A stretch of 64,000 bases of DNA from Eledone cirrhosa (Eukaryota). Positions 1,457-58,536 of the stretch are shown one piece after another; positions within the stretch are counted from its first letter, which is position 1; every line of letters starts with the position of its first letter. The DNA is taken from the NCBI GenBank assembly GCA_964016885.1, contig OZ024743.1, positions 152,396,001-152,460,000 of the forward strand, in the 5' to 3' direction. The notes beneath the pieces were generated by a model. The model was given only the letters and a program-made list of their open reading frames with translations. It was not told the DNA's origin and did not search any database. Position numbers and translations under genes: made by a program.

Positions 1457-2076
1457 CCTTTTGTCCTGTATGGGGAATATAATGAAACCAATGAGCATTC
1501 GTTTGGTAATGTAAGGTTAAAAAGCATTTAATCATCAGTACTAAATTACTATTCTCAAATTGTGTATTTTCAATCAAAACTATATTAAAAAAAAAATTAT
1601 TAGTTTGACTGTTCATGCGATAAATATATTTTTTCCTCATTCATTTCATATATTTAATGTTATTTCATTAAAAATACAATTATTTGGACTTAAAATCTTA
1701 GGAACAAAACTAACGGTAACAGTTCCAATAAGAAAAAAAAAGACAACAAATTATTCTATAATGAATATGAACAACTGACCACACAAATTTGAAGGGAGGG
1801 ATCAGGTGATTATACTCACAACCAAAATGTGAATGCAATCAATTAAATCCGAAGTATTTTGATCACAGCACTATCGATTGTGCCTTTAATTCCCGACCCA
1901 TCAAATATTTTATTAAATGGTCATAAGTATCCAGATTGAAGTGAGTGAAGTCCAAGCATTTTTTATTGGGTAAAATGATTATGATTGAAACCAAATTATA
2001 TTTGCCCTATAGCAGTTACTTTTACCTTACAGCAATCACTAAGGGTTCCAAATTTTATGAGGGAACATAAGATTCT

Positions 2077-2752
2077 GGCATACGTCAAGACAGGCGGTCA
2101 GGAAAGTGAAAGTAATTTTTGACACTGAATTTTTTTTTTTTTTTTTTACAACAGGTCTCAATAGTGAAAGTTACAATACACACGCAATTGTATGGATTTC
2201 TTAATATATATATATGTGTGGGTGTGTATATGTGTGTATATATATATATGTGTGTGTATGTATGTATATATATGTGTGTTTGTATATATATATGTGTTTG
2301 TGTCATCATCATCGTTTAACGTCTATCTTCCACGCAAGCATGGGTTTCTGACCCAAATCCCTTATCATTCTCTGTCCTTCTTATGACCCGACCTTAATTT
2401 CTTTGGGGACAGAGAGTTGGTGCAAACAAGTTTGGCGAGATGTACAAACACATATATACACACACAAACATATATATACGTCTAAACCCATGCTTGCGTG
2501 GAAGATAGACGTTAAACGATGATGATGACACAAACACATATATATATACAAACACACATATATATATACATACAGACACACATATATATACACACATATA
2601 CACACCCACACATATATATATATTAAGAAATCCATACAATTGCGTGTGTATCGTAACTTTCACTATTGAGACCTGTTGTAAAAAAAAAAATTAAAAAAAT
2701 TCAGTGTCAAAAATTACTTTCACTTTCCTGACCGCCCGTCTTGACGTATGCC
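2077..2752. mobile_element. Non-autonomous Mutator-like/foldback DNA element with ~270-bp TIRs and 9-bp TSD
   Basis: Arms 2077-2347 and 2484-2752 are near-identical reverse complements (GGCATACGTCAAGAC…); perfect TSD TAAGATTCT at 2068-2076 and 2753-2761. Confidence 0.9.
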
Positions 2753-3492
2753 TAAGATTCTTTAACATTCATACGTTAAATTCTTGGAAATAATTTATCA
2801 ATTCGTTCAAACAAATGTTACGTTTGTTGGATGGGGACATATTTGATCCGTTTGTAAAATATTATAAGTGAAATGAAAGTAAAATTACTATAGTAGATAA
2901 TTAAATTGTATTTTTGACTGCTCACTGGGGTCTTATCTTTGGTACCAGAACTAATGCAGTCATTTAATTGTTAGCAATGTAAATTGTTTTTTAACTGGTA
3001 ATTGAAACTGCTTCGCAATTTGATTTACGATATTTCCTCCATGGAATGAAATATCAATTTCTTATTTAAACACAAGGCCAGCAAATTTGGTGGGAAGAGC
3101 AAAGTTGATTAAATCAATCCCAGTACTTGACTGGTAGTTTATTTTATTGTATGGAATGTAATATTCATGACAATTTAATAAACACAAGCTTATAACAATT
3201 AAATCGAACTCGGTATGTGTTATTATGTCCCCCACCAATCAACTTCAAAAATGACGAAAAGCAAAGTTTAACCTGGAGAATATTTGAAATTCAGGACGAT
3301 AGAATGGCGGAACTGTTAGCGTATGACATTTGCATTCTGAGTTCAACTGTGGATCCACTGTTGCCAAGTTTTATCAGCCCTTACCTTTATCTTGGACAAA
3401 ATTGGAAGCATGAAGAGGGAGAGATTTTCATAAACAACATTGTCCAAGAGATGAACTTTCCAGGTGTAGAAACGTGGTCTCACGAAACATAC

Positions 3493-11669: not shown

Positions 11670-11847
11670 AACTTAATACAATTCTCAATCGGTATTTTAA
11701 TTTCTTGTGTTATCAACACATTGACGTATAAACTCACATACATGTTTGCATATATATATATATGCAAACATGTATGTGAGTTTATACGTCAATGTATGTG
11801 AGTTTAACACAAGAAATTAAAATACCGATTGAGAATTGTATTAAGTT
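11670..11847. repeat. Nested palindrome/inverted repeat centred on a (TA)n tract
   Basis: Outer arms 11670-11712 and 11805-11847; inner perfect palindrome 11718-11795. Confidence 0.85.
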
Positions 11848-13834
11848 TTTTTGTTTCAATTTATTTGTGGCATGAATGAGATAATGTGTAGAAGGGGAGA
11901 AATGAAATTTGGTCAGTGAGGGTGGGATGTGTGTCTATTTAGGCATGGTTTGTGAGTAACAGTGATGAATCAGTCATTCGTATTAACCTACATGTTTACA
12001 TGTTCCATCACAACACATGTTAAAATATATGACAACAATAAACGGTAAAACGACCGAGAATGAAAGATCCAAAATAAGCGGACTTACCTTTCCTCGTGAG
12101 TGTATATGGTGTAATAACAGAATAATAATAAATCGACTCCGAACGTCACTTAGTGAGTGCCAAAATATATTTACATACACATACACTGTGTATATGTATG
12201 CATACATATATAGTTGTACATATACATACATATATATATATTAATATCACTATATATATTTATCTATCCATTTCACTTCGTATATATATGTAAACACGCA
12301 CATACATAAATGTTTGTTTGTATATACGTGTGTGTGTGTGAATATATTTATGTATGTGTGTGAGCCTGCTGCTGTTTGCGTGTATACAGATCTTTTCCCC
12401 CCGTATTTATATCACTTGCTGATTTTCTCTTGGCTTGTACGGGATTACAGCAGGTAGGTAAGGAAGGTGCCAGTAATCTGTCTAGGCGTGGAGGAGCAGC
12501 GCCAGTCATTCAGCCAGCATGGCAAGAAGGAAGAGAGGAAGAAAAAGTGACGAAGATACAAATCGAAAGAATTCACTATATATAAATATATATATATGTA
12601 CGTACAGGCAGTAGTTATATATTTATGTTGTAAATAGAAAGAAAATAATAGGATACGATGGGGGCAGGTAATATATAAACTAGATAGATAGAGAGATAGA
12701 TAAGTAGCATACAGGTTTGTTACTTTTTGGGAAGTATGTGCGTAGGCCTGTTTGTGTTTTTTCCTGTGTTATTTTTGCCGCTATCAGGAATGGGAAGTGG
12801 CGGCGGTACGCAGCTGATGTGTTACGGTGGTTGGAGCTAGAGGTGCTTTCAAGAACCACTAGTTGGCTACTGCATCTGCCTTGGAAACGAAAAATAGCGA
12901 GACAGGAAGAAATAGAGAGAAAAATAACTGTGTGCGCACGCGAGTGTCGGTGTATGTGAGGAGAAAGAGAAAGAATAAGTGTTTATGAGGAAAAGAGAGA
13001 AAGTGAGTATATATAAAGTGTGTGTATATATGTGTGTATATAAGAAAGTGGATTTGTATATAAGTGTATCTCTTCGAGTGGTTATATTAGTTTCTGTAAT
13101 AGGAGTATATAGTGAAAGAAAGAGATGAAGGTAGAAGAAGTCAGACTAAACGATCGAGAGAAAGATAGGATAACAAAACATATGATGAAAGAGAAGTAGA
13201 GGGAAAAGAGGGTCGCAGAGAGAGACATTAATAGGAGGATGGGGCGGTACCTGTACGTAATACTTATGTATAAGAATGATATTGATGGAACTTTTTACAC
13301 TGGTAGTTTGTTACTTTCAACGTTTCATTTTTTTGTATGTTTATTTTTTTCATCGATGTGAAAGCCATTATTAATTAGAGTAAGCAATGACAATGGTGTT
13401 GGTCTTGTTTATGGTGATGATGTCGGTGACAGCAGACGAATGCCAACGCTTTAGTTCCACTTGTTTTGTCTTGTCTTGCCTGTAAGATATTCAGTACACC
13501 GGAAAATTCATCGCCACGACAGACGACTCTTTCATTCAAATTTCTTTGACTCCTCTTACAACACTCACTAACTTTACGCATTCACTAAAGTGTTAGTATA
13601 TTATATATAAATACTTATATGTATATAAACACAACATACACGCACACACATATATATATTTGTATATATGTATACTTCGTTTTTGAATTTTTTTTGCGAA
13701 ATTTCTTATCTGAAAACGTGTTGAAACAGATATTGTTATACTTTGGGAGGGTCATGCTGCCAATAAAAACACACGCACCTGTTGTTTTTCATTTCAATTT
13801 GTTATAAATTTCTGGTGGCTGGTTGTTTATATAT

Positions 13835-13878
13835 TGCCAAGGCTCTTTCGTCACGCATACTGTGACCTCCTCGGTGAC
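13835..13878 (-). ncRNA. Degenerate minimal hammerhead-ribozyme-like motif
   Basis: GUCA-CCGAGGA-G-GUCAC(AGUAUGC)GUGAC-GAAA-GAGCCU-UGGC; core deviates from consensus. Confidence 0.4.
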
Positions 13879-13943
13879 TGATTTCTTATTCTGTGCCTCT
13901 CCATTGCTCTGACCTACACCATCTTGTTTTTGTGTGTTGTGCC

Positions 13944-13974
<31 letters not shown>

Positions 13975-14370
13975 CACTCAGCCTCCGGAATCCTCCCCCA
14001 CCCCTCCCCATCCACACACGCACGCACACACCGACCTACACCCCACCCCACACAAACACCTTTTCCTGAACATGGAACCCCGTTCTTCCCCCAACTCTCA
14101 CATTCACATACACACACACACACGTACACCTACACACACACACCACCTTCAGTCCTCCCCGCTCGGACACCCTGCCTCCCTCTCCCCACTCCACCCGCCA
14201 CCACCCCTACACGCCTCACACCCTTCCACCACTTGTTTATCTTCATGTTTATTTTTATTTTTATTGTTTTTATATTTATTTTCATTTGTACCGTTTCCTC
14301 TCATCCCCTTTTTTCTAAATGTCTCTCCCCCACTCCCCTAAACACCCTTGGAACTCTCTTCCGACACACT

Positions 14371-14406
14371 TTTCGCCTGAAGAAGGGCTTATGCCCGAAA
14401 CGTCGT
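14371..14406 (+). ncRNA. Minimal type I hammerhead ribozyme (Penelope-pLTR type)
   Basis: CUGAAGA(14377)-A-GGGC-UUAU-GCCC-GAAA-CGUC; stem I very weak; AATAAA about 40 nt downstream. Confidence 0.7.
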
Positions 14407-14642
14407 TCCCCACCACCACCCCACTCTCAAGAGCGTGAAACTAATAAACCTTTGTTCGTACTGCCTCTCTGTTTTGTTCCCGTTCCATTTTTCACTATAT
14501 AACCAAAGATTAATATGGTTCGTTGATTACTCAACGAATACAGTTTTACAATAGATTAGAAGGACTCAAAAGAAAAGTTTTCCTGGAGTTTTTAATATTA
14601 TTCAAAATGTTAACAAATGAAAAATATTCGCATAATCAAAAT

Positions 14643-14715
14643 ATATACTTTATTATATATATTTCAAAGGTACTGTGCTGTTTTTTTCAGTACGTCCTCA
14701 TCAGACAAAATATAT
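14643..14715 (-). ncRNA. Type I hammerhead ribozyme (mirror copy)
   Basis: Reverse complement of the 14817-14889 motif. Confidence 0.75.
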
Positions 14716-14816
14716 GATTTGATATATGACATACCGCTACGGTCTTGATTATTCAATCCCCTGCCAATACGGGGATTGAATAATCAAGACCGTAGCGGTA
14801 TGTCATATATCAAATC

Positions 14817-14889
14817 ATATATTTTGTCTGATGAGGACGTACTGAAAAAAACAGCACAGTACCTTTGAAATATATATAATAAAGTATAT
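14817..14889 (+). ncRNA. Type I hammerhead ribozyme
   Basis: Stem I AUAUAUUUUGU/AUAAAGUAUAU; CUGAUGA at 14828; stem II GGAcGUACUG/CAGUACcUUU; GAAA; palindromic stem III AUAUAUAU; AUA cleavage triplet. Confidence 0.75.
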
Positions 14890-15050
14890 ATTTTGATTAT
14901 GCGAATACTTTTCATTTGTTAACATTTTGAATAATATATATATATATTTATATTATATACATATATATATATACACATACATATGTATATATATATATAT
15001 ATTTATATATACATATGTATATATGTTGTGTTTTATATATATATATATAT

Positions 15051-15397
15051 GGCTTAGTGGTTAGAGCATTGGCCTTGCAATCGAAAGGTTGTGAGTTCAA
15101 TTCTCAGACCGGGTGATGTGTTGTTTCCTTGAGCAAGACACTTTATTTCACATTGCTCCAGTTTACTCAGCTGTAGAAATGAGATGATAGGGACTGAGAT
15201 CCATATCATTCCACTGCTAAGTGGTCGTGGAGGTGCCACGGCAAAAAAAAGCACCCAGCACTCACTATAAATGAGGTTGGTGTTAGGAAGGGCATCCAGC
15301 TGTAGAAATCAAGCCAGAATCAGTTCCCGTCCCACCCTTGCAAGCAGGGAAAAAAAGCGGACGTAAAATGAAATGATGATGATGATGATGATGATGA
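15051..15397 (+). mobile_element. Full-length tRNA-derived CORE-like SINE with RTE-derived body and tail
   Basis: A box GGCTTAGTGG, B box GAGTTCAATTC, CTTGAGCAAGACACTT core; 3' end matches the RTE end at 47418-47478, then (ATG)n. Confidence 0.85.
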
Positions 15398-15505
15398 TAT
15401 ACATATGTATGTATATATATGTGTTTTATATATATACATATATATATGTGTTTTATATATATACATATATATATATGTTATATATATATGTATATATATA
15501 TATGT

Positions 15506-15537
<32 letters not shown>

Positions 15538-15657
15538 TATATGTTATATATATATGCATATATATATATATATATATGTATGTAGATATGTTATATATAT
15601 ATATATATTTGGTGTATGATATATATATATAACATATACGTACATACATATATACAT

Positions 15658-15701
<44 letters not shown>

Positions 15702-15722
15702 CATATACGTACATACATACAT

Positions 15723-15776
<54 letters not shown>

Positions 15777-15932
15777 ATAACATTCTCATATAACGAGAAT
15801 AAACATTCCAGACTCTTGATGTTTTAATTTTCCCAACAAGAGTTTTGTGCAAAGCAGGCGGTTATCTTTTGTCTTTGCAAACATGTATTGGCTTCTCCGC
15901 ATCAGATATTACTTGTTTCGAAGGTCCTCACA

Positions 15933-16083
15933 CAGTGCCGGATTTAGGACAAATTAGGCACTGTTCTAGTTAAGTTATGAGACCCCAAACATTTGAAAAA
16001 TTAACAATGTTTTTGGCGGGCAGATGGGCTCTCCTTGGCTCTGTGCTTAAGCACACCTAAGCACAATGGTAAATCCATCACTG
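15933..16083. mobile_element. hAT-like MITE
   Basis: Imperfect TIR CAGTGCCGGATTTA…TAAATCCATCACTG; TSD degraded. Confidence 0.55.
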
Positions 16084-16451
16084 TCTCATGCACAATTATT
16101 CCGATAGCAATGGTGTTAATTGACTTTCTGGGGCTGTTATCGATATTTTTCTGCGTCTTTTGTACTAATTTGGATGTTCTGGTGGTATTAGGATCCTAAG
16201 CAGACGTTTTTCGTCAGTGACTTACAGCTGTTTGCGAACATTGACAATAAACGAGTATGAAACTTTCAGGAAGCGGGGGACTCTCTAAATCACAATGTTC
16301 TGCTTTTAAAGTAGCGATTGTAGTGTGCCTTTTCATTTGCTGAGTTAGCTTGATGTCTGTCATCATTTATCCGAAAGGAAATGATAATCAGAAGAGGTTA
16401 GAAAAAAGTGAGAACTATTGAAGGACGTGCCGCCAACGAACTGAGGACCCC

Positions 16452-16494
<43 letters not shown>

Positions 16495-16766
16495 TTCTGT
16501 ATATATATAAATATACATATTAGATATTAGGCATGTGCATATTATATATTGACGTAATCTTGGTTACTTCTTCTGTGTGTATACAGATATAACTTTATCA
16601 TACCCATCAGCCTCAAGCTCACATCTTAATATATACCTTAATTAATTACCAACACAAGCGCTAATTATATGCAAATTAGTACGCCCATTTCAGAATAATA
16701 CTAAGGCCGAATGGGTAAATAAGCCCATCAAATACGTATTTCCTTGTGGTTATTTGCATGATATAC

Positions 16767-16817
16767 AAAACTTCTGATGAGGGCCCAATTAGGCCAGAAA
16801 ATCGATCAAAGGTGTTT
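16767..16817 (+). ncRNA. Minimal hammerhead ribozyme motif within a diverged ~340-bp tandem unit
   Basis: CUGAUGA(16774)-gGGCC-caauua-GGCCa-GAAA-AUCGAU-C; diverged direct repeats start at 16562 and 16903. Confidence 0.6.
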
Positions 16818-17137
16818 ATCACTTTTTCAATTTACTGAGAAATTCGTATGTTTACATGCTTACGTATTAGATGTATATTTATATTCACATTGGGGCAATA
16901 TCGGTTACACCCTCAGTATGTATAGATAAAACTTTATCATACACCTTGGCTGCTAGTGAACTTCTTAATATACAATATATATATATATGTGTGTGTGGTG
17001 TGTGTGTGTGTGTGTGTGGATAGATATGTATATATATATATATATATATATGTAGGAGGTGAGTTTTATTGTAGTACAATAAAGCAATGCAGATATCGGA
17101 TAAGAAGCACTCTACAGTTTGTAGGACTGGAGTATAC

Positions 17138-17416
17138 ATAATATAAGATCAAAAGATGGTTAAAGGAGTTCCATGTATTTTATTATGCGCATTTCAAAAA
17201 CAAACATCATCATGCAATAATATTTGTGTTTTCATCAGATAAAACATGTTGATTTAAAACTGCACTATCCACAAGTGTTTTTTAGCCTTCATATCATGTT
17301 CTCCTGTTTTATCATGTGTTTTCATCATGAAAACACAAATATTATTGCATGATGATGTTTGTTTTTGAAATGCGCATAATAAAATACATGGAACTCCTTT
17401 AACCATCTTTTGATCT

Positions 17417-17424
<8 letters not shown>
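17138..17424. mobile_element. Head-to-head inverted pair of an HHR cassette
   Basis: Arms 17138-17235 and 17327-17424; the right arm is truncated inside CUGAUGA and runs into (TA)n. Confidence 0.8.
17172..17248 (-). ncRNA. Type I hammerhead ribozyme
   Basis: CAUG-UUUUAU-CUGAUGA-long stem II (ACAAAUAUUAUU/GAUGAUGUUUGU)-GAAA-UGCGCA-UA-AUAAAA-ua-CAUG. Confidence 0.8.
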
Positions 17425-17473
<49 letters not shown>

Positions 17474-17616
17474 CGTGTGTATGTATGCATATATATATAT
17501 GTGTGTGTTTCCGAGTATATGTATTATGTGTGTACTTGTAAATATATGTATATGTACAGGCGTATGTGTGTGTACGTGAATTAAGAAAATGCAATGAAGT
17601 TTCGTTTATATGTTGT

Positions 17617-17882
17617 TGTTTTTTTATTATCGACCTGTTACATACGTTTCACAGATGATTGGCTCAAGGTCACTTATGGAAGCTATCGACCCGACTCCAG
17701 CATCGACCTGCTTGTCAGATTTGGTGATCCACAAAAATTAAAAAAAATAAACGGAAAAAAAACGGAGAATCACCAGGTCTGACGATCAGATCGATGCTGG
17801 GGTCACGTCCATAACCTCCAATGGTGACCTTGTGTCAATCATATGTGAAATGTATGTAACAGACCGATAATCAATAAAAACA
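17617..17882. mobile_element. Older, diverged head-to-head pair of an HHR cassette
   Basis: Arms 17617-17728 and 17769-17882, visibly diverged; + arm CUGACGA(17779)…GAAA(17847)UGUAUG-UA; - arm CUGACAA…GAAACGUAUG-UA; long stem II. Confidence 0.7.
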
Positions 17883-17896
17883 TGTAAATGAAACTT

Positions 17897-19305
17897 TATC
17901 AATGGCCTGACTGTTTCACGAAGACTGCTACAGATACCTGGGGATAGACTAGAATATATCCTATGGAGGTATTTGTAACAAGGAACGCATAACCAAGGAA
18001 TATAATACCCGATTAAGAAAAATATGGTCATCTGAAATGTCTACGCACAATAAAACAGTTACTCACAATGTGCTTGCTGTGACTGTCCTATCACCAACGT
18101 TTGGAATACTAGATTGAACGAAAGAGTATATCCGAGCAATTGATGTTAAAACCAAAAAAAATCTTAAATAACACCAGAAACATCCACATCAACAGTGATA
18201 TAGTCCGCCTCTACTTGAATCGAAAGCAGGGAGGCAGAGGTCTAACATCAGTCCAGACAGTATTTGAATGTCACATTAAATCCATCCGGCAACATCTACG
18301 AACCTCCAAGCGTAGGAGCCCATCTATTGAGCAAGTCTAACTGCATGAGATAGATAAGATCATGAGAGTTGGGAAGGAACTCCTTGAAAGATATTCCCTG
18401 CATGATAATCAAACATTCACACCCAGGGAAATTGCCCAGCAATACGGCAGTGAATAGATTGATGAAAAACTGCGTGCTTATCAGCAAAAAATCATGCATG
18501 GCTATGTTGCAAAGAAGCTCCAAAGTGAGGGTAATATAGATAAGCAAAATAGTCTATCTTAGAATAACAACTGCTATATTGGCTCCCACTTTGAATGATA
18601 TGATTTTGCAATTAAAGAACAGGAAATCAATACAAAATACTTGATTCACAAAAGAGATAGGGATGCAGGCAAAACGTCTAGATGTGACAACAAATGCAGA
18701 CTCTGCAGAATTAACATCGAAGACTCATCCATGTCATAAGCAGCTGTCCAAAGATGTTATCACGGTACAATCTACCTATGAGACATGATGTAGTGGCCAA
18801 ACCACTATACAATGGAAATCCGTAGAAAAGATAGCCCCGACAGTAATTACATTACAAGTTACAGCAATATGGATGACATATACATAATATGAAAAAGTAC
18901 TGTTCCTGCCAAAACCCCAATAAAATCAAGCATAACAGACCAGATATAATGATATGGGTTAGGGAAAAGAAGGCATGCACAATAGTGGAAGTTATCTGCC
19001 CAGCAGATGCCAATATAATATTAAAAATTAGCGAAAAGGAGAAATCTACAGATACTCCACCCTGATTATACCTTCAGATGTATACCGGTTGTTATTGGGG
19101 TACTGGGATATGTTAGTAACAGTTTCAGTACAAATCTTGAGAAGCTAGGCTTCACAGAACCAAGAAGAACACGAATATTTAGGAAATTACAAGTACAATC
19201 CATTAATGGAACAGTAAAAATATGTAAAACTACCAAAAATTCTGCATGTAAAAACTACATGTATACATGCACACATATAACTCAAAATGCCCACATCCAC
19301 TCATA
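17897..19305 (+). mobile_element. R4/Dong-like (RLE) non-LTR retrotransposon, 3' half, degraded
   Basis: HINSDIVRLYLNRKQGGRGL, CRLC…H…SC zinc knuckle, HNRPDI restriction-like endonuclease remnant; homologous to 63015-63900. Confidence 0.85.
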
Positions 19306-19344
19306 TCTTAAGTTTTCTTAGAGTTGTCTGGAATGTATCCACTT

Positions 19345-19427
19345 AACACACGCTGATGAACCTGGGTGTTTCATTCCATTCACCAATCTTTTGGCGAAAC
19401 AAATCTCTTTGGGTTTGTACGTGTGTT
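19345..19427 (+). ncRNA. Type I hammerhead ribozyme with stable stem III
   Basis: Stem I AACACACG/CGUGUGUU (8 bp perfect); CUGAUGA at 19353; imperfect stem II; GAAA at 19396; stem III CAAAUCU/GGGUUUG; GUA triplet. Confidence 0.75.
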
Positions 19428-19602
19428 ATATATAGTTATAAAGGTGGGTAAATTCATTCTGATTTATATTTTTAATTATTATGCGTCTACCTCACTTTTC
19501 GTAGTTTATAGATTCCACACACTGGTGGTTTTCCCTGTACATTGATAAACACACACACTCTCTCTCTCGTGTGTTATCTTTTCTACATATTATATATATA
19601 CT

Positions 19603-22520
19603 GCTACCTGTTCCAGCCATCCGGTTGAGCCATGTTGGAGCACCGCCCTTGTTGCTACACGTTCTATATCCAGCCTGCGTTGGCTGGCTATTGATATAAG
19701 AGGGAGTTTGTTGCTGGTGCCCTTAGGTTCCCTTCGTTCCATGCTGTGGGTTCATCTGGGATCCTGGATAGCAGAGTGTCAAGATATTTCTTGAAAACAT
19801 CCACGTCCACACAATGCAGATCTCTCAAATTTCTATTAAAGAGTTGAGTCATTGAACCTCCAGCTATTGCAATATCTGCTCCTTACTCTAGATGTGAAAG
19901 ACGAGACTATTGGTACCACACATTGACGTCTTGTTCGAGGGTTGGTCCAGCTCTCAATGTCAAAGTGTGTGCTAGTCCCTCCAGGATCTTCCATATGTAT
20001 ATCGCTGCGTACCTCTCCCGCCTTCGTTCCAAGGAGTAGAGTTCTTTTAGCCTCTCCCAGTAGCTCATCTCCTTCATGTGGCACTCCTCTTGGTGTAGCT
20101 TCGTTGGATTGATTCAAGCTCCGTGGTTAGTTTGACACTATGAGGTGACCACAGTTGGGAACAATAATCCATTTGGCTTAGGACAAATGTCTACCATAGT
20201 GCCAACATGGTTTCTCGGTCTCTTGTTTTGAAAGTCCTCAAGATCCAGCCAGTGAGTCCTCTGCATATTGTTGCCATTTCCATGATGTGTGAAGAAAACG
20301 ATGTATCGTGACTCATGTCTATACCCAGGTCTCGTATCGATTTCGACACGGGGATTCCGTTCCCTCCTGGTCCGGTGTAGCTTTGTTGTACTGTCCTGTT
20401 GCTCTACTGTCCAGGTTGATATTGTAGGGCTTGAAGTTTTCCAACATTAAATTTAGCCCATTTGTATTTGGCATCCAGATCTCGGATTGCCTGTGCTACC
20501 CTTGTGTCATTAGCATAGCTGTGGGGGATGCTGTATGTACTACACAGGTCATGTCAGAAAGAGCTACCAAAAACAGTAGTGGTCCCATGACCGTACCCTG
20601 GGTCACCCCGGTTATTATTGATGTTTCCTTTGAGAGGTTCCCGCAACAGTCTGGCTTCAGTCTTTTAAGAAATCCTGCAGCCACTCACCTACTTTTCCAG
20701 TTATGCCGAGTCTGTGTAGTTTGTGATACATCTTTCCATGGTCGACCTTACCGAAGGCAGTCGACCTTATCGAAGGCCTTTGCAAATTCAAGATATATCA
20801 CATGTGAGCTATCTAGCAATTGTTTCAATACCCAGTCGTAGTGTTGTAAAATCAGTGTAAGGCAGCTTCTTCCTGGGCGAAAGCTATGCTGCGTGTTAAT
20901 TAGGCGGTCATTTTCTTCGAGGAACACGATCAGTTTCTTTCTGATGTTTCGTTCCATGACCTTACTGATATGTGAGGTCAGAGAGACTGGCCTGCAATTT
21001 TTAGCTTCTGCTCTGCTTCCTCTATTATGGATAGGGTATATTATGCCTCCTTTTAGTTCTCTGGGTAGTTTACCGCTAACCAGAGAACTTCTGAAGAAGA
21101 TCTTCATTGGTCATACTAAGGAATGCTTGCATGTTTTTAGGAGGATTGCTGGGAATCCATCAGGTTCAGCAGGTGAGCTTGCTCTCATTTTTTCTATAGC
21201 TGATATTATATCTTCCTCCGTTATATCTATGTGGTTGATGATCGTCATTTCTCCATATAGTGCTGTGGCATCAAAGTATTCTCCTGGCTTTGTTATTTGC
21301 ATGTGCCTCATTGGGTGTATGAAAACACTTTTGTATTGTTCATTCAGTGTATCACTTACCTACTGAGGATCCTCGGTCAATGAGCCATTTGTATGGAAAA
21401 GAGGCCCAACCTTGCAGTGTACCGAGACAGATTCTTTTGCAAATTCAAATAAGACTTGAAGTTTGTTTTAATATTTTCTATGGCCATGGCTTCTCTCTCT
21501 GCCCTCTCCTTCTCGTGGGAAATTTTGAGTGCAGTTTCAATTTCAAGCAGTGCCTGTTTCAGATAGAGTTCCTTCTTGTTCTTCTGTTGTGCAATTAACA
21601 GGTTTGAGATCTTTGTTCTTCGTCTCATAAGGATTTTCCTCTCTCTGGGAATAAGATTTTTGTCTCCGTTGACCTTTTTTCCGGGACAAACTTACGACAT
21701 ATGGTTTGTATTGTTGTCATGAAATGTTGAAATTGTACATTGGTGTCTTGTGTGGAGATGTTATCGATCGAGTTTGGTTTCAGGATCTCTTCCTGGATTC
21801 CTTTCTAGTTAGGCTTATGAAAGTTTAGGCTGGATAGATTCCCGGTGCTTCCTAAAGATGCGTCTCTACTGACTCCCCTGGATTATATATCATGAGTTCT
21901 ACTATGTTATGATCCGAGAAAATCGTTGGTGTCACCTTTACATTGTGGATGAGCACTACGTTATTTGTAACGCAAAGATCCAGAACATCCCCCCCCCACC
22001 TCTTGTTGGGTGGAGTACTACTTGTTCCATGAACAGCCTGTTTGTGAGGACCAGCAGGGACTCTCTGTCTCTGTTCGAGTGTTGACAACCCTTCTGTTGG
22101 TTTCTGTGGAGAGACCAAAGGATAGGTTTCTCCAGCAAAGTTGTTTTGGGGTTTGTTGAAAAACTCTTGGATCGTGTCAATAACGTCCTGTGTACGCTTC
22201 CTGTGTCGTCAAGAATGGGCAGGACGGCCCGCAGAGATTGTAATGAAGTTTGCCACTGTATCATAGGTCACAAACTTCTTCCCCCAGTTTTGCATATTGG
22301 CTTTGAAGGGAGATTTATCTGTTCCAAAAAAATGCATGAAATTGCTCCTGACTTGCTTTTTACGAGTGACGCTTATAGTAGTGTTTCTCACAAACACTCC
22401 GGTGCTGGAGTTTCCATGGAACTTTCGTCTTCTCAGACGTTGTATCTGCCATGTCCTGAAATTTGAGGTTGATCAGTTAGAAAATGAATATCTAGTCACA
22501 CAAAACATATGCGGGACAGT
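19603..22520 (-). mobile_element. CR1-clade LINE, degraded (APE + RT + 3' tail)
   Basis: LDLCVTNN…FSDHNIV (APE), RPVSLTSHISKVME, YLEFAKAFDKVD, GVTQGTVMGPLLFL; 3' tail similar to 5862-5912. Confidence 0.88.
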
Positions 22521-22552
22521 TTTTTTTAGACCTCTGTATATGTTTGAATGTA

Positions 22553-22644
<92 letters not shown>

Positions 22645-22910
22645 CATGTATGTATGAATGTATGTAACCACTTAGCCACGCACATCAAAAATGGTTACAC
22701 GACGACTTTGATGTCTTTGAAATGTGCATAACAGATGATGTGTTAAACTGAGGATGTATACGTGATACCGTATCTATTCTTTTTTATTATATATATGTGT
22801 GTGTGTGAAAGAATGTCCCGCGTAGCTAAGATCATACATACATATACAGCGGTCTAAAAAAAAACTCCTCCCGCATACGTCTCTTTCTCTCTTTTTTTCT
22901 CTCTCTCTTT

Positions 22911-22949
<39 letters not shown>

Positions 22950-23051
22950 AAGACAAACATAGAATATTCGAAAATATTCTGTATGTTTATAATAAACATT
23001 TCGAAGACCCAATCGCTATAGAATAGAATACGTCACGTATTACAATTTGAG

Positions 23052-23140
23052 ATTCTCGATAAAAGCAAGGGAAGTAACCTACGCGTTTCATTCTTATTAG
23101 AAATCATCAGGATTACATATCCAGTGCTTTTATCGAGAAT
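23052..23140 (-). ncRNA. Type I hammerhead ribozyme (mirror copy)
   Basis: Reverse complement of 23362-23450. Confidence 0.8.
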
Positions 23141-23361
23141 GACACAGCTAGAGACTTATAGAATACTTAGCTGTGTACAGGAACTGATTTGAAAGAGCGG
23201 TTGCCGGTCCGGCAGAAATTAGAATTTGGATATAATGCTCTGAAATAGCGATATATATGTGAAGCATTATATCCAAATTCTAATTTCTGCCGGACCGGCA
23301 ACCGCTCTTTCAAATCAGTTCCTGTACACAGCTAAGTATTCTATAAGTCTCTAGCTGTGTC

Positions 23362-23450
23362 ATTCTCGATAAAAGCACTGGATATGTAATCCTGATGATT
23401 TCTAATAAGAATGAAACGCGTAGGTTACTTCCCTTGCTTTTATCGAGAAT
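23362..23450 (+). ncRNA. Type I hammerhead ribozyme with extended stem I
   Basis: GUAAUC-CUGAUGA(23392)-uUUCU-aaua-AGAAu-GAAA-CGCG-UA-GGUUAC, closed by a distal 16-bp helix AUUCUCGAUAAAAGCA/UGCUUUUAUCGAGAAU. Confidence 0.8.
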
Positions 23451-23585
23451 CTCAAATTGTAATACGTGACGTATTCTATTCTATAGCGATTGGGTCTTCG
23501 AAATGTTTATTATAAACATACAGAATATTTTCGAATATTCTATGTTTGTCTTCACATATATATCGCTATTTCAGAGCATTATATC

Positions 23586-23656
<71 letters not shown>

Positions 23657-23695
23657 GATATTAATAAATGGAAACTATATTTATAAAACCATATT

Positions 23696-23760
23696 TATTT
23701 CATTATACATATTTCAGGGATACCAAATTAAATTATGGTATGCCTTCATCAGACAAAATA
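23696..23760 (-). ncRNA. Type I hammerhead ribozyme (mirror copy)
   Basis: Reverse complement of 23834-23898. Confidence 0.8.
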
Positions 23761-23833
23761 CAATATATAACAGTTTTACAAATAAGCTTTGAAGTACCCT
23801 ATTAAAATGCAACCATAAAACTGTTATATATTG

Positions 23834-23898
23834 TATTTTGTCTGATGAAGGCATACCATAATTTAATTTGGTATCCCTGAAATATGTATAATGAAATA
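23834..23898 (+). ncRNA. Type I hammerhead ribozyme
   Basis: UAUUUUGU-CUGAUGA(23842)-AGGcAUACCA…UGGUAUcCCU-GAAA-UAUGUA-UA-AUGAAAUA; related to the 14817 motif. Confidence 0.8.
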
Positions 23899-24026
23899 AA
23901 TATGGTTTTATAAATATAGTTTCCATTTATTAATATCGTATATCTACGCCAAATACTTGTCGAGCGCTTTATATCAGTTATAAAAATATTTACTTGTTGT
24001 ATCCCAACAATTTTAAATAGAACTTT

Positions 24027-24083
<57 letters not shown>

Positions 24084-39099: not shown

Positions 39100-40921
39100 T
39101 CATCATCATCATCATCATCAGCGTTTAACGTCCGTGTTCCACGCTTGCATGGGTTTGGACGGGGGTAGTCCCACTTGAGGCAAGAGTGATTGTCTTGCTC
39201 GCATAGGACTGTCTGGCAGGTTTTCTACAGTTGGATGCCCTTCCTAACACCAACCACATTTACAGTGTGGGTCTGGGAGGTTTTTACCGTGTTGCCTACA
39301 CGGCCACATTACAGCGTGGACTGTGTGTTTTTTTGTCGTGACACCTACACGATCTCATTTGTTTCGGCCTCGATGGCGCGGCACCAACATAACTTTACAT
39401 AGAACGGGGTGGTGTGGATCGGGTGGGGGTGGTGGGACGGGGTGTATTTGTTAGAGATGCCTACTGGCTGGAGTAGGTTTTACTATATATTTAGGTAAGG
39501 CGGGTCTTCTCTGTTACTGAGTACCGCCAAAGGTCTCGGTCCAGTGACATTGTCTTGGAGAGGTGTAAGTGTGTGATGTCGGAGTTTATCAGCTCGTCCC
39601 AGGTTTTTCTAGGTCTGCCTATTCCGTGACTACCGTCTATCTTTATTGCCCTGCACTTTGTTATACAGCTATCGACTTTCATGCGCATCACGTGTCCATA
39701 CCAACGTAGCCTTCTCTCGAGTAAACAACATCTGATCCCTCTTATCTCTAATTTATTCCTTAGTTCGTTTATGCTTTGCCGTTCACGTATATTACTGTTA
39801 CACATCCAGCGGAGCATGCAAGCTTCGTTCCTCTCTAGTCTGCGTATATCCTCTGCACACAATGCCCAGGTCTCACTGCCATGCAGCATTGCTGTTCGTA
39901 TGCAGGCATCGTACAACCTGCCTTTCATTTTTAGTGAGAACCCTTTAGCAGCTAATAGTGGTATAAGCTCTCTGAACTTTTTCCAACCAGTTCTGACTCT
40001 AGCTACAGTACTTTCAGAGCACCCTCCCCCACTGCTGATTTTATCGCCCAGGTAACGGAAGCTGTCCACTATTTCTATAGAACCCTCTGCGCAATTGAAA
40101 GAGCTAGTAGTTTGTGGGCACTTGCTGCTACTTATTGCACCAGAGCACCGGCCACATGTAAAATCTATGTTCTTAGTTAGCCTACCTGTGATCCCACTAC
40201 ATCTTTTATGCACCCATACTTTGCATTTAGGACATAAAATGGAGTTTCTACCTACGCCTTTCCTACACACCGAGCACGACCATTTCCCAGAAGGGACCGC
40301 CGCCTTGTTTTCTTTCCTACAAACTAGTACTTTGGTCTTAGCCAGGTTAATTTTAAGTCCTTTTGACTCTAGGCCGTGCTTCCATGTTTGGAATTTCTTC
40401 TCTAGCTCGGCCATTGATTCCGCTATGAGTGTCAGGTCGTCTGCGTATAGGAGTTCCCATGGGCAGCCTGTCTTGAACTCCTCTGTTATGGCCTGAAGGG
40501 CAATAATAAATAGTAGTGGACTGAGAACAGAGCCCTGATGGACGCCGACTTTTACGCTAAACTCTTCACTATATTCGTTGTTAATTCTAACCTTGCTGAC
40601 TGTTTCTTTATACATGGCTTGTATAGCCCTCACAAGCCATTCGTCAACGCCTAGTTTTCTAAGAGCCCACCAGATAATGGAGCGGGGGACTCTGTCGAAG
40701 GCTTTCTCCAAGTCGACAAAAGCTAAGTAGAGGGGTTTACCTTTAGCTAGGTACTTCTCTTGTAGTTGTCGTACTATGAAAAGAGCGTCTGTGGTACTTT
40801 TGCCTGACACAAACCCGAACTGCATTTCATCTAGGTCAATTCTCTCTCTGATTAGCTGCGCTATTACTCTTTCCGTGACCTTCATGACCTGGTCGATTAA
40901 TTTAATGCCTCTATAGTTACT

Positions 40922-40922
<1 letters not shown>
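39100..40922 (-). mobile_element. RTE-clade LINE, 5'-truncated, with 3' UTR and (GAT)n tail
   Basis: Uninterrupted RT ORF; tail CCCATGCAAGCGTGGAACACGGACGTTAAACGCTGATGATG. Confidence 0.92.
39491..40922 (-). CDS. RTE ORF partial: reverse transcriptase with PHD-like finger
   Basis: [44 protein letters not shown]-x2-C…C-x2-C…WVHKRC…C-x2-[16 protein letters not shown]; no stops. Confidence 0.9.
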
Positions 40923-40962
<40 letters not shown>

Positions 40963-40981
40963 GTATATATATATGTATATG

Positions 40982-42030
<1,049 letters not shown>

Positions 42031-44289: not shown

Positions 44290-47200
44290 TATGACCATGC
44301 TGTAAAATGGAGGGGTAGAGAGGGTCCATGAGTCCAGTAAGACATCCTCTCTAGTGCTGGTGGCACAAATAAAAGCACCTGTAAAGTGGCGCTGGTGTTA
44401 GGAAGGGCATCCAAGCAGTGTATCAATGCCAAAACGATTATAAGCACAGCAACAAGTATATAGGAACAACAAAAATATGAAGACGTCGCAACACTTAATG
44501 TTGTCACTCTCTCTGGTAGATCTGCTGAAATAGTGGAGATGCTGGAGAGAAGACATGTGGATGTGTGCTGCGTGCAAGAGGTGAGATGGAAAGGTGCCTC
44601 TGCGAGACTAGTTGCAGACAAAAATCTTAGCTATAAGCTTTTATGCGTAGGTAAGGATGATGGATTAGGGGTGTAGGCATTTTCCTGGCTGAGAGATGGA
44701 TCAATAAGATAATAGAGGTAGTTCGAGTTAGTAATCGAATAATTAAGCTTAGATTAGTTATAGGCAGGAGACTACTGACAATCATCTCTGCCTAAGGCCC
44801 CCAAGCAGGCCTAGGCAAAGAAGAGAACGACTGCTTTTACGAGCAACTTTTACAAACAACCGCAATGACAGAGGACACAGACACCATTATGCTAGCAGGA
44901 GACTTCAATGGTCATGTTGGACAGCTCCAGGATGGTTACACTGGGGTACATGGTGGGCATGGTTACGGCTCAAGAAATGAAGGAGTGATACTTCTTGAAT
45001 TTTATGATGCAAGTACACTGACTATTTGCAACACTAACTTCCAGAAACCTGCCAACCACCTAATAACCTACAAATCAGGCGAGCACATAAGCAAGATTGA
45101 CTTCTTACTAGTTAGGCAGCGGGACAGGCAGATGGTGTCAAATACCAAGGCATACCCTGGGGAAGAATGTAACCCACAGCATAGGTTAGTCGTTAGTGAT
45201 ATCTCAGTAAGCAAGAGATGGAATTAGACATTCAGGAAGGTGTGGAGAAGAAAGACCTTTCACTAAAATACAAATTTAGGAAAGCCCTTCAAGATGTGTA
45301 TGACGAAAAAGAAGACGATTTAGAGACGTATGAAATAGATAATAACTGGAATTTCTTACGTGACAACTTACTGCAGGCTACTGAAGAAACTTGTGGCTGG
45401 AGCAGAGCTCCAACCAGACAGAGAGTGACCTGGTGGTGGAACATCACAGTAGATAGGGCCATTAGAGCCAAAAGACTAGCATGGAAGGCTTGGAAAAAGG
45501 GTAGGAGTAGAGAAAGATATACAGCCACTAAGAGAGAAGCTAGACATCAGGTGTACTTAGCACGCAGGGAGGCTGAGAGTAGGAGGTTTACCAATGTTCT
45601 GCGACGGGAAGATCAGAGGCGTGCGGTGTTACACATTGCAATGCAGTGTTTCAATGCAAATCAGGTTGTTGTTGGAGATAAATGTGTCCGGGATGATGCC
45701 GTGTACTTAGTGTCATGAATGATCAGAAAAAGGAGGCCTGGAAATGTCATTATAAGAGACTGATGAATGTGGAGAATGAATGAGAGAGAAATTACCCTCA
45801 GTAGATCCGACAGAGGTACCAGCTATTGAGATTGACGAATATAGGGTCCAAGAGGCGATTAAGGAAATAAAAAATGGTAAGGCTGCTGGACCATCAATCA
45901 GGTATCATCAATTAGGCATATATGGTGGTGTCATACCCAAATACTGGTGCAGCAGTATTCTCATAAATTGCTACAAAGGTAAAGGGGATGCTCTGGAGAG
46001 GAGCAATTATAGGGGTATAAAACTGATGGATCAGGTTATGAAAGTGGCAGAAAGGATATTAGCACAACTAATTAGAGAAAGGGTCAAACTAGATGAGATG
46101 CAGTTTGGTTTTGTGCCTGGGAAGAGTACAACAGTGCCCTCTTCTTGGTGAGACAATTACAAGAGAGGTTCTTAGAGAAAAATAAGCCACTATACTTAGC
46201 CTTTGCTGACCTAGAGAAGGCCTTTGATAGGGTACCCCGATCTGGCATCTGGTGGTCCCTAAGGAAACTAGGTGTTGAGGAATGGCTTGTGAGGACAGTG
46301 CAAACTTTGTACAGAGGTACTGTCAGTAAAGTCAGGGTAGGCATGGAGTTTAGTGAGGATTTCCAGATACAAACAAGTAGTAGTACATCAAGGTTCGGTC
46401 CTCAGCTCGCTCTTGTTCATTATAGTCCTCCAAGCCATAATAGAGGAGTTTAAGACTGGCTGTCCATGGGAACTTCTCTATGCTGACGATCTGGTTCTTA
46501 TAGCAGAATCAGTGGAGGAGCTAGAGAATAAATTCTGACTATGGAAACAGCAGTTGGAAGCAAGAGGACTGAGAGTGAACCTAGCTAAGACAAAAGTGTT
46601 GATGAGTAGAAAAGAGGACAAAACTCTGATTCCGTCAGGGAAATGGCCATGTTCGATATGCAGAAAAGGAACTGGCAAAAATTCTATAAAATGCACACAA
46701 TGCAGATCCTGGGTACACAAGAGATGTAGCGGGATAGCAGGCAAACTAACAGGTAGGGAGAAATACATATGCAGTAGATGTACAGGGAAATTAGACAGTA
46801 GAAGTCGTATTGATAGACACATTTTTCAAATGCAGACGGGTGCTATAGAAGAGGTGGATAGCTTCTGGTACCTAGGAGATCAGATTAGCATGGGAGGGAG
46901 GTGTTCAGAGGCCGTAGTATCTAGAATAAGGACGGGCTGGAAGAAGTTTAGGGAGCTGCTTCCTCTGCTGATGAAGAAGGGTTTCTCCCTGCGTACGAAA
47001 GGCCGGTTATATGATGCCTGTGTGAGGCGCGCAATGCTGCATAGTAGTGAGACATGGGCAGCAACTGCAGACGATATGCGACGGCTGGAGAGAAATGAGG
47101 CAATCATGCTCCGTTGGATGTGCAGTGTCAATGTGCGTGAACGACCCAGCATGAATGTGTTGAGAAAGAAACTGTGTCTGAGAGGGATAGAATGTAGTGT

Positions 47201-47478
47201 GCGAGAGGGGAGACTGCGGTGGTATGGACATGTGATGTGCATGGAGGATGACTGATGGGTGAAGAAGTGCCAGGAAATGCCAGTTGAAGGAAGATGTGGT
47301 AGAGGTGGACCACGAAAAACATGGGTGGAGGTGGTGAGAACAGACCTCAGATCGCTGAAGCTCACGGTGGAGATGACGAAGGACTGTGACAAGTGGAGAG
47401 ATGCTGTGCTGAATAAGACCCATCCCACCCTTGCAAGCAGGGAAAAGTGGACATAAAATGATGACGATGATGATGATG
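44290..47478 (+). mobile_element. Near full-length RTE LINE (APE + RT + PHD-like), inactivated
   Basis: ATLNV…DVCCVQEVRWKG, AGDFNGHVG, IDFLLV…[22 protein letters not shown]; several stops and frameshifts; (GAT)n tail. Confidence 0.93.
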
Positions 47479-49153: not shown

Positions 49154-49280
49154 GATGAATGGTTCTCCTTCATTACATTTATTGGTTGGTGATGTGTGTT
49201 TCGCTATTGATCAAGGTTCGATCTGTAACAATCTAGCGCGTCACCAACCAATAAACGTAATGAACGAGTAATCATTCATC
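49154..49280. repeat. Diverged inverted pair of HHR-cassette 3' ends (relic)
   Basis: Arms about 49154-49197 and 49237-49280; - strand GCUA…UAGC-GAAA-CACACA-UC-ACCAACCAAUAAA; + strand GCGCGUC-ACCAACCAAUAAA; (TA)n follows. Confidence 0.55.
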
Positions 49281-49322
49281 TTTGTTGTATTATTATATAT
49301 ATATATATATATATATATAAGA

Positions 49323-50320
49323 ACGATCTGGTTCTTATAGCAGAATCAGTAGAGGAGCTAGAGAATAAATTCTGGCTATGGAAACAACAGTTGGAAGCAA
49401 GAGGACTGAGAGTGAACCTAGCTAAGACAAAAGTGTTGATGAGTAGAAAAGAGGACAAAACTCTAATTCCGTCAGGGAAATGGCCATGTTCGATATGTAG
49501 AAAAGGAACTGGCATAAATTCTATAAAATGCACACAATGCAGATCCTGGGTACATAAGAGATGTAGTGGGATAGCAGGCAAACTAACAGGTAGGGAGAAA
49601 TACGTATGCAGTAGATGTACAGGGAAATTAGACAGTAGAAGTCGCATTGATAGACACATTTTTCAAATGCAGGCGAGTGCTATAGAAGTGGTGGATAGCT
49701 TCTGGTACCTAGGAGATCAGATTAGCATGGGAGGAGGGTGTTCCGAGGCCGTAGTATCTAGTACAGGTTGGAAGAAGTTTAGGGAGCTGCTTCCTCTGCT
49801 GATGAAGAAGGGTTTCACCCTGTGTACGAAAGGCCGGTTATATGATGCCTGTGTGAGGAGTGCGATGCTGCATGGCAGTGAGACATGGGCAGCAACTGCA
49901 GAGGATATGCGATGGCTGGAGAGCAATGAGGCAAGCATGTTCCGTTGCATGAGCATTGTCAATGTACATGAACAGCCCAGCATGGATGTGTTGAGAGAGA
50001 AACTGTGTCTGAGGGGGATAGAATGTAGTGTACGGGAGAGGAGACTGCGGTGGTATGGACATGTGATGCGCATGGAGGATGACCGATGGGTGAAGAAGTG
50101 TCAGGAAATGCCAGTTGAAGGAAGACGTGGTAGAGATAGACCACGAAAAACATGGGCGGGGGTGGTGAGAACAGACCTCAGATCGCTGAAGCTCACGGTG
50201 GAGATGACGAAGGACCGTGACAAGTGGAGAGATGCTGTGCTGCTGAATAAGACCCGTCCCACCCTTGCAAGCATGGAAAAGCGGACGTAAAATGATGATG
50301 ATGATGTTGATGATGATGAT
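49323..50320 (+). mobile_element. 5'-truncated copy of the 44290 RTE
   Basis: Closely matches 46486-47478; 299-aa ORF at 49391-50290. Confidence 0.92.
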
Positions 50321-58436: not shown

Positions 58437-58536
58437 CAGGGTGTCCCAAAAAATGTATACATACTTTGATTACCTGTACAGCTAATATTTATAAGAATGC
58501 TGTTGAAGTGTGTATACATTTTTTAGGGACATCCTG
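58437..58536. mobile_element. Tc1/mariner MITE, 100 bp
   Basis: TIRs CAGGGTGTCCCAAAAAATGTATACA…TGTATACATTTTTTAGGGACATCCTG; TA on both sides. Confidence 0.85.

What the first reader, a model, noticed from the sequence alone, without database searches (positions are those of the whole stretch)
13835..24030. Hotspot of hammerhead-ribozyme cassettes inserted as head-to-head inverted pairs at (TA)n microsatellites
Seen: within about 10 kb there are HHR cores (CUGANGA…GAAA…NUH with pairable stems I-III) at 14377, 14828, 16774, 17172-17248(-), 17779, 19353, 23392 and 23842, plus a degenerate one at 13835. They belong to several unrelated flanking-sequence families and none has an ORF. Five are inverted pairs with identical polarity: 5' ends joined in the middle, both ribozymes reading outwards, outer ends usually in (TA)n. 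Established: Penelope-like elements carry type I HHRs in their pseudo-LTRs and can insert with an inverted 5'-truncated partner; metazoan non-LTR retrozymes are short non-coding HHR repeats. Inference: a diverse, TA-targeting non-autonomous retrozyme/pLTR system whose usual insertion product is a mirror pair. This could arise if both ends of a break are each primed on an RNA copy and then joined.
Basis: partly seen in the sequence, partly recalled or inferred. Interest (0 to 1): 0.9.

Follow-up and report, generated by a model that had tools for sequence, protein, structure and literature searches.

The report
Mirror-image Penelope insertions in TA repeats
These back-to-back ribozyme repeats are real insertions of a known kind of jumping gene (Penelope-like elements) and of a small non-coding repeat that likely hitch-hikes on them, and their lopsided ends suggest that both ends of the cut DNA start copying one and the same RNA at two fixed points, which makes an unexplained step of their life cycle testable.

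Summary
Real, but mostly a described layout. Eight intact hammerhead folds (0 in 200 shuffles) and five 5'-to-5' mirror pairs lie in 13.8-24.1 kb. They are not one non-autonomous system: cassettes A, B and E are cut-down 3' ends of autonomous Hydra-type Penelope-like elements (PLEs) whose RT-GIY-YIG reading frames lie elsewhere in the genome; D is a 312-nt tandem retrozyme. Inverted partner, one-sided tail and (TA)n target are published PLE features (PMC8557442). Added here: mirrors are the usual product (27 of 39 position-sampled D loci; none tail-to-tail); each mirror has exactly one tailed and one untailed end (49 of 49 classifiable D mirrors; 83 of 90 Hydra pairs); both arms carry one insertion-specific haplotype (0.60% apart versus 2.17% between loci) with no register effect; arms run through the ribozyme cut site; centres show microhomology. 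Best model (inferred): a PLE enzyme primes both cut strands at two fixed sites on one uncleaved or circular RNA, and the two cDNAs are end-joined. Cleavage, RNA circles and D's helper element are untested. This scan noted the same pattern many times elsewhere in this genome.

The parts
13700..13945 (-). I: old, common repeat with a decayed hammerhead core
   Evidence: Matches 32 held loci, including the window's own overlapping ones; an intact core is seen in the copy in L240; fails the descriptor here
13975..14500 (+). F: single C-rich 3' end (pseudo-LTR-like) with a minimal hammerhead core at 14377; ends in a short TA run into which A is joined
   Evidence: 1262 first-look candidates, 40 scored at 97-100%; in L313 it runs on into sequence similar to the N-terminus of a Neptune-type PLE protein, E 4e-11
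14497..14761 (-). A left arm: 3' end of a Hydra-type PLE, hammerhead at 14704, with about 98-nt tail
   Evidence: endonuclease remnant upstream of the same end in L285 and L286
14771..14937 (+). A right arm: same 3' end without tail, hammerhead at 14828, ends in (TA)n
   Evidence: 167 nt at 99% complementarity to the left arm
16577..16972 (+). G: old permuted unit of about 339 nt with a decayed hammerhead at 16774, single orientation
   Evidence: 57-nt direct repeat 339 nt apart; two other held loci at 72-73%; not searched genome-wide
17051..17250 (-). B left arm: 3' end of an abundant Hydra-type PLE, hammerhead at 17238, with about 82-nt tail
   Evidence: 18,107 exact matches of a 25-mer; open frames of 775 and 808 codons between tandem copies in L282 and L283
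17247..17429 (+). B right arm without tail; hammerhead core broken by a small inversion; ends in (TA)n
17594..17899 (.). C: old mirror pair (about 80% complementary) of a long-stem-II hammerhead family, core at 17779 decayed
   Evidence: a Hydra-type protein remnant adjoins 1 of 19 loci
17897..19305 (+). Decayed 3' part of a LINE with a restriction-like endonuclease; bystander, the hammerhead at 19353 is not part of it
   Evidence: Motifs (clade assignment recalled); 39 other copies stop matching by query position about 370-412, before the hammerhead
19305..19598 (+). H: single 5'-truncated copy of a permuted non-coding hammerhead repeat, intact fold at 19353
   Evidence: 2098 first-look candidates; permutation seen in L347 and L351; fold z -4.0
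22939..23264 (-). D left arm: 1.04 units of a 312-nt retrozyme, hammerhead at 23110, untailed end (site S1) in (TA)n
   Evidence: L070
23263..23590 (+). D right arm: 1.05 units, hammerhead at 23392, tailed end (site S2, about 30 nt further) in (TA)n; 2-nt microhomology at the centre
   Evidence: 1799 exact matches of a 24-mer genome-wide
23648..23812 (-). E left arm: 3' end of a Hydra-type PLE, hammerhead at 23752, no tail; shares a (TA)n run with D
23811..24030 (+). E right arm, hammerhead at 23842, with about 86-nt tail, ends in (TA)n
   Evidence: 5911 exact matches of a 24-mer; Hydra-type coding sequence in 10 of 20 fetched loci, 695-codon frame in L304

Best explanation
The mirror pairs are genomic insertions of Penelope-like retroelements (three are clipped ends of protein-coding Hydra-type elements, one is a non-coding 312-nt retrozyme), and they are likely made when the element's enzyme cuts both strands of a TA repeat and primes reverse transcription from both DNA ends at two fixed sites on one RNA. 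Shown: the anatomy, the one-tail-per-pair rule, the shared haplotype of the arms, microhomology at the centre, read-through of the ribozyme cut site. Inferred: one end starts at the downstream site S2 (giving the tail), the other at S1, 30-100 nt upstream; both copy the same template towards its 5' end, one cDNA displacing the other; they stop at random points and are joined by microhomology-mediated end joining, then filled in. For D the template is more likely a monomer circle copied round and round (about 60%) than a linear read-through multimer (about 40%). Each insertion leaves TA runs on both sides, so later elements would nest beside it and build the cluster.
For: Position-ordered sample of 39 D loci: 27 mirrors, 12 single-orientation, 0 tail-to-tail. 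All 74 D loci examined: 52 mirrors; 49 of 49 with both ends classifiable are S1/S2 (binomial p 2e-15 against free choice of site; one pair of loci is a duplicate; 3 mirrors had an unclassifiable end). Hydra families: A 22 of 24, B 15 of 18, E 46 of 48 pairs. Two Neptune-type coding mirrors show the same asymmetry (L230, L239). Arm lengths uncorrelated (rho 0.06), S1 arm longer in 29 of 49. Arms differ by 93 of 15,380 sites in register, 168 of 25,822 out of register (Fisher p 0.61), 0.59-0.66% within arms, 2.17% between loci; identical at all diagnostic sites in 31 of 36 mirrors against 4.2 expected. Centre overlap of 2 nt or more in 31 of 51, 9.1 expected. 5' ends within 20 nt after the cut site: 8 of 104, 6.7 expected. 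TA run next to 45 of 48 S2 and 42 of 48 S1 ends. A purified PLE protein cuts and extends both strands and starts at two internal sites that bound the tail (PMC11167929).
Against: No biochemical or RNA evidence here; cleavage and circles are not shown. Two RNA molecules from one dominant source locus, or a young homogeneous linear multimer, would give the same haplotype sharing. Gene conversion between arms could also equalise them. Two loci carry G at the cleavage position in nearly all units of both arms (L042 5 of 6, L066 3 of 3), which fits an uncleaved template better than a self-cut circle. No error hotspot at the would-be ligation site. Five of 36 mirrors differ at one diagnostic site. 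Centre overlaps are BLAST overlaps that allow mismatches, the null is exact, so the excess is overstated. The A sample and 30 of the E loci were found with queries that include the centre, and pairs were only roughly de-duplicated. The element that mobilises D was not identified.
Confidence: 0.6

Rival explanations
1. One priming event gives a cDNA that folds back or template-switches onto itself; the hairpin intermediate is then resolved by staggered endonuclease cuts, which leaves the tail on one side only.
For: Explains one haplotype per insertion and centre microhomology. Craig et al. suggest the tail comes from endonuclease resolution of the intermediate (PMC8557442).
Against: A copy-back arm cannot be longer than its template arm or contain a tail that the template arm lacks; the tailed arm is the longer in about 20 of 49 mirrors and the shorter in 29, lengths are uncorrelated, and single-unit Hydra ends show both orders too. 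Tail limits match RT start sites in vitro.
Confidence: 0.15
2. A dimeric enzyme holds two RNA molecules, one primed at S1 and one at S2; they look alike because they come from the same source locus in that cell.
For: The PLE protein is predicted to be a dimer; an asymmetric dimer could enforce the S1/S2 rule without strand displacement; 5 of 36 mirrors have a one-site difference between arms.
Against: At least 18 polymorphic positions segregate among D loci, yet no mirror joins two clearly different haplotypes; variants private to one sampled locus are shared by both arms in several cases.
Confidence: 0.2
3. The inversions are amplification or assembly chimeras, or later DNA rearrangements at palindromic (TA)n.
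For: (TA)n is its own reverse complement; young arms are nearly identical; no long read spanning a window junction was available.
Against: Inverted similarity stops at element ends (only 4 of 48 loci have any short non-microsatellite flank similarity); strict polarity and one-tail rule; arms have diverged 0.6% (D) to about 20% (C); contigs of independent public runs carry arm-to-arm joints at other positions (X1 for E, X4 for D).
Confidence: 0.02

Closest known systems
Hydra clade of EN+ Penelope-like elements (Craig et al. 2021, PMC8557442; its File S1 lists Hydra-1_Obim with (TA)n preference)
   Same: C-terminal GIY-YIG, DKT motif, CxCx5C linker, CxxC and CxH motifs, hammerhead in the terminal repeat, (TA)n target, partial tandems, inverted 5'-truncated partner, one-sided tail (families B and E; A by its endonuclease remnant)
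   Different: Tails of 82-98 nt rather than 30-40; unit of about 3.7-3.9 kb rather than under 3 kb; RW but not RWK; the strict one-tail-per-mirror rule is not quantified in the passages read
Metazoan non-LTR retrozymes (Cervera and de la Pena 2020, PMC7229834; Li, Clavereau and Pollet 2026, 10.64898/2026.07.22.740005)
   Same: D: 312-nt, low-GC, non-coding tandem unit with one type I hammerhead; strongly self-paired as a circle; coexists with PLEs, proposed there as the helpers
   Different: Most D insertions are two divergent arrays joined 5' to 5' with PLE-type fixed ends in (TA)n; the word 'inverted' does not occur in PMC7229834 and only in a reference title in the 2026 preprint, which argues from phylogeny and favours local tandem amplification
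Poseidon element PAc in vitro (Frangieh et al. 2024, PMC11167929)
   Same: Both strands cut and extended, AT-rich target, two internal RT start sites bounding the tail, ribozyme cleavage not needed for insertion
   Different: PAc start sites are reported as not homologous to the target, whereas S1 sites here sit in short TA-alternating runs; the paper does not explain the inverted partner
L1 twin priming
   Same: Second target end primes on the same RNA and the cDNAs are joined by microhomology
   Different: L1 gives an inversion without duplicating the 3' end and the second site varies; here the second site is fixed and both arms duplicate the same 3' region

Membership tests
Hydra-clade PLE (families B, E, A) | Single ORF with RT and C-terminal GIY-YIG endonuclease | tested here: met
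   B: frames of 775 and 808 codons; E: 695-codon frame, 53% identical; A: only C-terminal remnants, 46-50%. Domains read from the alignment; Pfam gave no hit for the B proteins
Hydra-clade PLE (families B, E, A) | DKT in place of DKG; RWK motif | tested here: inconclusive
   DKT present in B and E; RW present but followed by I or R, not K (definition)
Hydra-clade PLE (families B, E, A) | CxCx5C linker; CxxC and CxH around the conserved E and N; no CCHH | tested here: met
   Seen in B and E; A not covered in an intact frame
Hydra-clade PLE (families B, E, A) | Hammerhead in terminal repeat and (TA)n insertion preference | tested here: met
Hydra-clade PLE (families B, E, A) | Placement in the Hydra clade on an RT tree with reference proteins | not tested
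   No tree built; the 37 homologues found (28-41% identity) carry no clade names
Hydra-clade PLE (families B, E, A) | Generally under 3 kb | tested here: not met
   Tandem spacing 3940 nt in L282 and about 3710 nt in L283; the paper says 'generally', so this is a soft feature
PLE insertion layout | Inverted 5'-truncated partner and tail at one end only | tested here: met
   tail length 30 nt in D, 55-98 nt in the coding families
Non-LTR retrozyme (family D) | Tandem non-coding unit of 150-450 nt with a type I hammerhead in each unit | tested here: met
   312-nt period; longest ATG frame 34 codons; hammerhead
Non-LTR retrozyme (family D) | Self-cleavage in vitro | not testable with these tools
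   Core nearly invariant in 228 aligned units; Rfam below cut-off
Non-LTR retrozyme (family D) | Expression as linear and circular monomer RNA | not testable with these tools
   Only indirect signs: no register effect, circular fold z -4.5 against 100 shuffles
MITE or fold-back DNA transposon | Fixed palindromic unit with identical terminal inverted repeats | tested here: not met
   Centres vary between loci and ends are unequal

The most novel reading that the evidence does not exclude
Penelope-type enzymes routinely prime both strands of a cut (TA)n target at two fixed sites of a single RNA, set by a small hairpin at the start of the tail, and in retrozyme D that RNA is a ribozyme-made circle copied in two rolling-circle runs at once; the mirror arrays would be the genomic record of circular-RNA retrotransposition and would explain the PLE inverted repeats and tail by one mechanism.
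Probability: 0.35. Interest if true: 0.75.

Novelty: new variant of a known kind. Interest (0 to 1): 0.45.

Why it matters
How Penelope-like elements make their tandem and inverted structures is called undefined in the reference paper (PMC8557442), and the helper and template of animal retrozymes are proposed but not shown (PMC7229834). The one-tail-per-mirror rule, the shared haplotype and read-through of the cut site restrict the models sharply and point to simple assays with an existing in vitro system. A young family with over a thousand copies gives a large natural sample. The elements and the layout themselves are known, so the value lies in mechanism, not in a new class.

Tried and rejected
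Fixed-centre palindrome as the mobile unit (A, E): an artefact of queries that spanned the centre; junctions differ. Hammerhead at 19353 as part of the adjacent LINE: other LINE copies end before it. Error hotspot at the would-be circle ligation site: none (position 312: 1 minor variant in 215; position 1: 0 in 215). A-to-I editing footprint in template-shared variants: 9 A>G against 5 T>C, p 0.18. Rfam: whole-window list was filled by microsatellite hits (150 of 242 rows shown); cut-out motifs stayed below cut-off. Minimum-energy folds of isolated motifs: only H beat its shuffles. Sequence match of D to a coding PLE: the 74-76% matches near GIY-YIG loci were to other short repeats, not to PLE ends. 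A GIY-YIG Pfam search listed mainly Neptune-type elements among the proteins read, and the Pfam model does not hit the B proteins. No RNA holder listed. The laid runs do not cover the window's unique flanks, so no empty site or spanning read was seen. G was not searched genome-wide. Literature searches found no paper stating the one-tail rule or mirror retrozyme arrays; most subscription papers, including early Penelope work, are outside the library, and the supplements of the bioRxiv preprint were not seen.
Full report
Setting. The window is G000:C4:152396001-152460000 in a 3.0-Gb animal assembly rich in (TA)n. I label the cassettes A (14.5-14.9 kb), B (17.05-17.43), C (17.6-17.9), D (22.9-23.6), E (23.65-24.03), F (14377), G (16774), H (19353) and I (13835).

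Observation. A hammerhead descriptor finds eight complete folds in 13.8-24.1 kb, none in 200 shuffles and none in the remaining 53.7 kb. A, D and E carry one on each arm, B only on the left arm, H one. C, F, G and I have recognisable but decayed or minimal cores and fail the descriptor. Rfam does not call any of them (best 17.6 bits against a cut-off of 52). Across all held loci the same descriptor recovers many families with different stem I sequences; since the descriptor demands pairing, the shuffle control is the real test. Five mirror pairs have their 5' ends in the centre. Density is higher beside such insertions (1.3-1.4 motifs per 10 kb) than beside an unrelated LINE (0.2 per 10 kb); A is joined to the end of F, and D and E share one TA run. 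Nesting in TA runs is my inference for the cluster.

What the cassettes are. Exact 24-25-mers occur 18,107 (B), 5911 (E), 1799 (D) and 498 (A) times. Widely spaced opposite-strand pairs of B, E and A enclose coding sequence: B has frames of 775 and 808 codons between tandem terminal repeats, with the tail just upstream of the start codon; E has related coding sequence in 10 of 20 fetched loci; A has endonuclease remnants upstream of its end in L285 and L286. The B and E proteins show DKT, a CxCx5C linker, a C-terminal GIY-YIG-type domain with CxxC and CxH, the features given for the Hydra clade (PMC8557442 section 11); no tree was built. So these three are 5'-truncated copies of autonomous elements. 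D is different: a 312-nt tandem unit without a reading frame, 94-100% identical across loci, in arrays up to seven units per arm: a retrozyme. H is a permuted non-coding repeat lying next to, not within, a decayed LINE. F probably belongs to a coding PLE (one of 14 loci runs on into a Neptune-like N-terminus). The genome also holds intact-looking Neptune-type PLEs (938 and 1096 codons); two of them are mirrors with a tail on one side.

Insertion rules. In a position-ordered sample (first 100 of 1799 matches, 39 loci) 27 D insertions are 5'-to-5' mirrors, 12 are single-orientation and none is tail-to-tail. With the 40 best-scoring loci added (74 distinct loci, one duplicated pair), 52 are mirrors; outer ends fall at S1 (about 125-141 nt after the cut site) or S2 (about 160-174), and 49 of 49 mirrors with two classifiable ends have one of each. 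Hydra families follow the rule in 83 of 90 pairs, with tails of about 98, 82 and 86 nt; B's three exceptions are two arms that run on into the next tandem unit and one nested case. Centres are variable, show overlap of 2 nt or more in 31 of 51 (9.1 expected; overstated because BLAST overlaps allow mismatches) and inserted bases in 9. Arm lengths are independent, and arms do not stop at the ribozyme cut site (8 of 104 against 6.7), so the template is not the cleaved linear monomer.

One template. Within an insertion all units differ by about 0.6% whatever the arm or register, against 2.17% between loci; arms agree at all diagnostic sites in 31 of 36 mirrors, 4.2 expected. This fits two primers on one RNA, and the lack of a register effect fits a single monomer copied repeatedly, as on a circle. 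Against the circle: two loci have G at the cleavage position in nearly all units, there is no ligation-site error peak, and a young homogeneous linear array or two RNAs from one source would look the same.

Artefact check. Inversion stops at element ends, polarity and asymmetry are strict, arms have aged, and contigs of two independent public runs hold arm-to-arm joints at other positions. No spanning long read was available.

Tail signal. I noted a shared GAGTGCTT-like motif in the tails of A, B and E; earlier scan notes suggested it is part of a hairpin. A short ACTC...GAGT stem follows S1 in B, E, C and another short repeat, with GCT...AGC in D and H, and is absent from two Neptune tails. 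The pattern was defined after looking, so it is only a lead that D uses a Hydra-type enzyme.

Comparison with print. Craig et al. 2021 (PMC8557442; passages, section 11 and a supplement search seen) describe the inverted 5'-truncated copy, the 30-40 bp one-sided tail, (TA)n preference of Hydra elements and non-autonomous Chlamys elements, and call the mechanism undefined. Frangieh et al. 2024 (PMC11167929; parts 1-2 of 4 read) show two-strand cutting and extension and two start sites. Cervera and de la Pena 2020 (PMC7229834; passages) show retrozyme circles and propose PLEs as helpers. Li et al. 2026 (parts 1-3 of 5 and a word search) link them by phylogeny. Seven searches found no statement of the one-tail rule or of mirror retrozyme arrays, within a library that lacks most subscription papers. 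Earlier notes of this scan report the same pattern at many places in this genome and in at least one other; they are unchecked AI notes and are not counted as support.

Verdict. Observation largely right, interpretation partly right. Known elements in a known layout, with new quantitative constraints on an open mechanism and an extension of the layout to a retrozyme. Interest 0.45.

Noticed in passing
D monomer position 190 (numbered from the cleavage site), loci L055, L161, L174, L181, L190, L194: This site is mixed within 6 of 50 multi-unit insertions, against 0-1 for nine other diagnostic sites; could be a modified base misread on each pass, a mixed template or a mutation hotspot.
   Followed up: partly
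L042 and L066, D cleavage position: G instead of A at the cleavage position in nearly all units of both arms, predicted to be poorly cleavable yet amplified.
   Followed up: partly
G000, pattern: Strand imbalance of D matches (725 forward, 1074 reverse) suggests one very long single-orientation array somewhere, a possible source locus.
   Followed up: no
L225, L226, L230, L233, L234, L236 3' ends: A Neptune-type family with intact-looking frames has no canonical core but a hammerhead-like variant in which the C3 and G8 positions appear as U and A (read by eye; identity as a known variant is recalled).
   Followed up: no
L226:7510-8419: A separate 459-nt tandem hammerhead repeat sits in the (TA)n right after a Neptune element, imitating its terminal repeat.
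   Followed up: partly
window 39491-41179 (-), 46097-47255 (+), 49229-50290 (+): Retroelement fragments with an RT domain followed by a PHD-type finger.
   Followed up: no
window 2069-2762, 11683-11834, 49154-49280, 58427-58546: Further inverted repeats without a hammerhead by the descriptor; the first has matches in 25 held loci.
   Followed up: partly
window 19605-22470 (-): Decayed LINE with AP-endonuclease and RT remnants between H and D.
   Followed up: no
L045 and L276: Nested insertions of several hammerhead families inside one another, including D joined to a Hydra element.
   Followed up: partly
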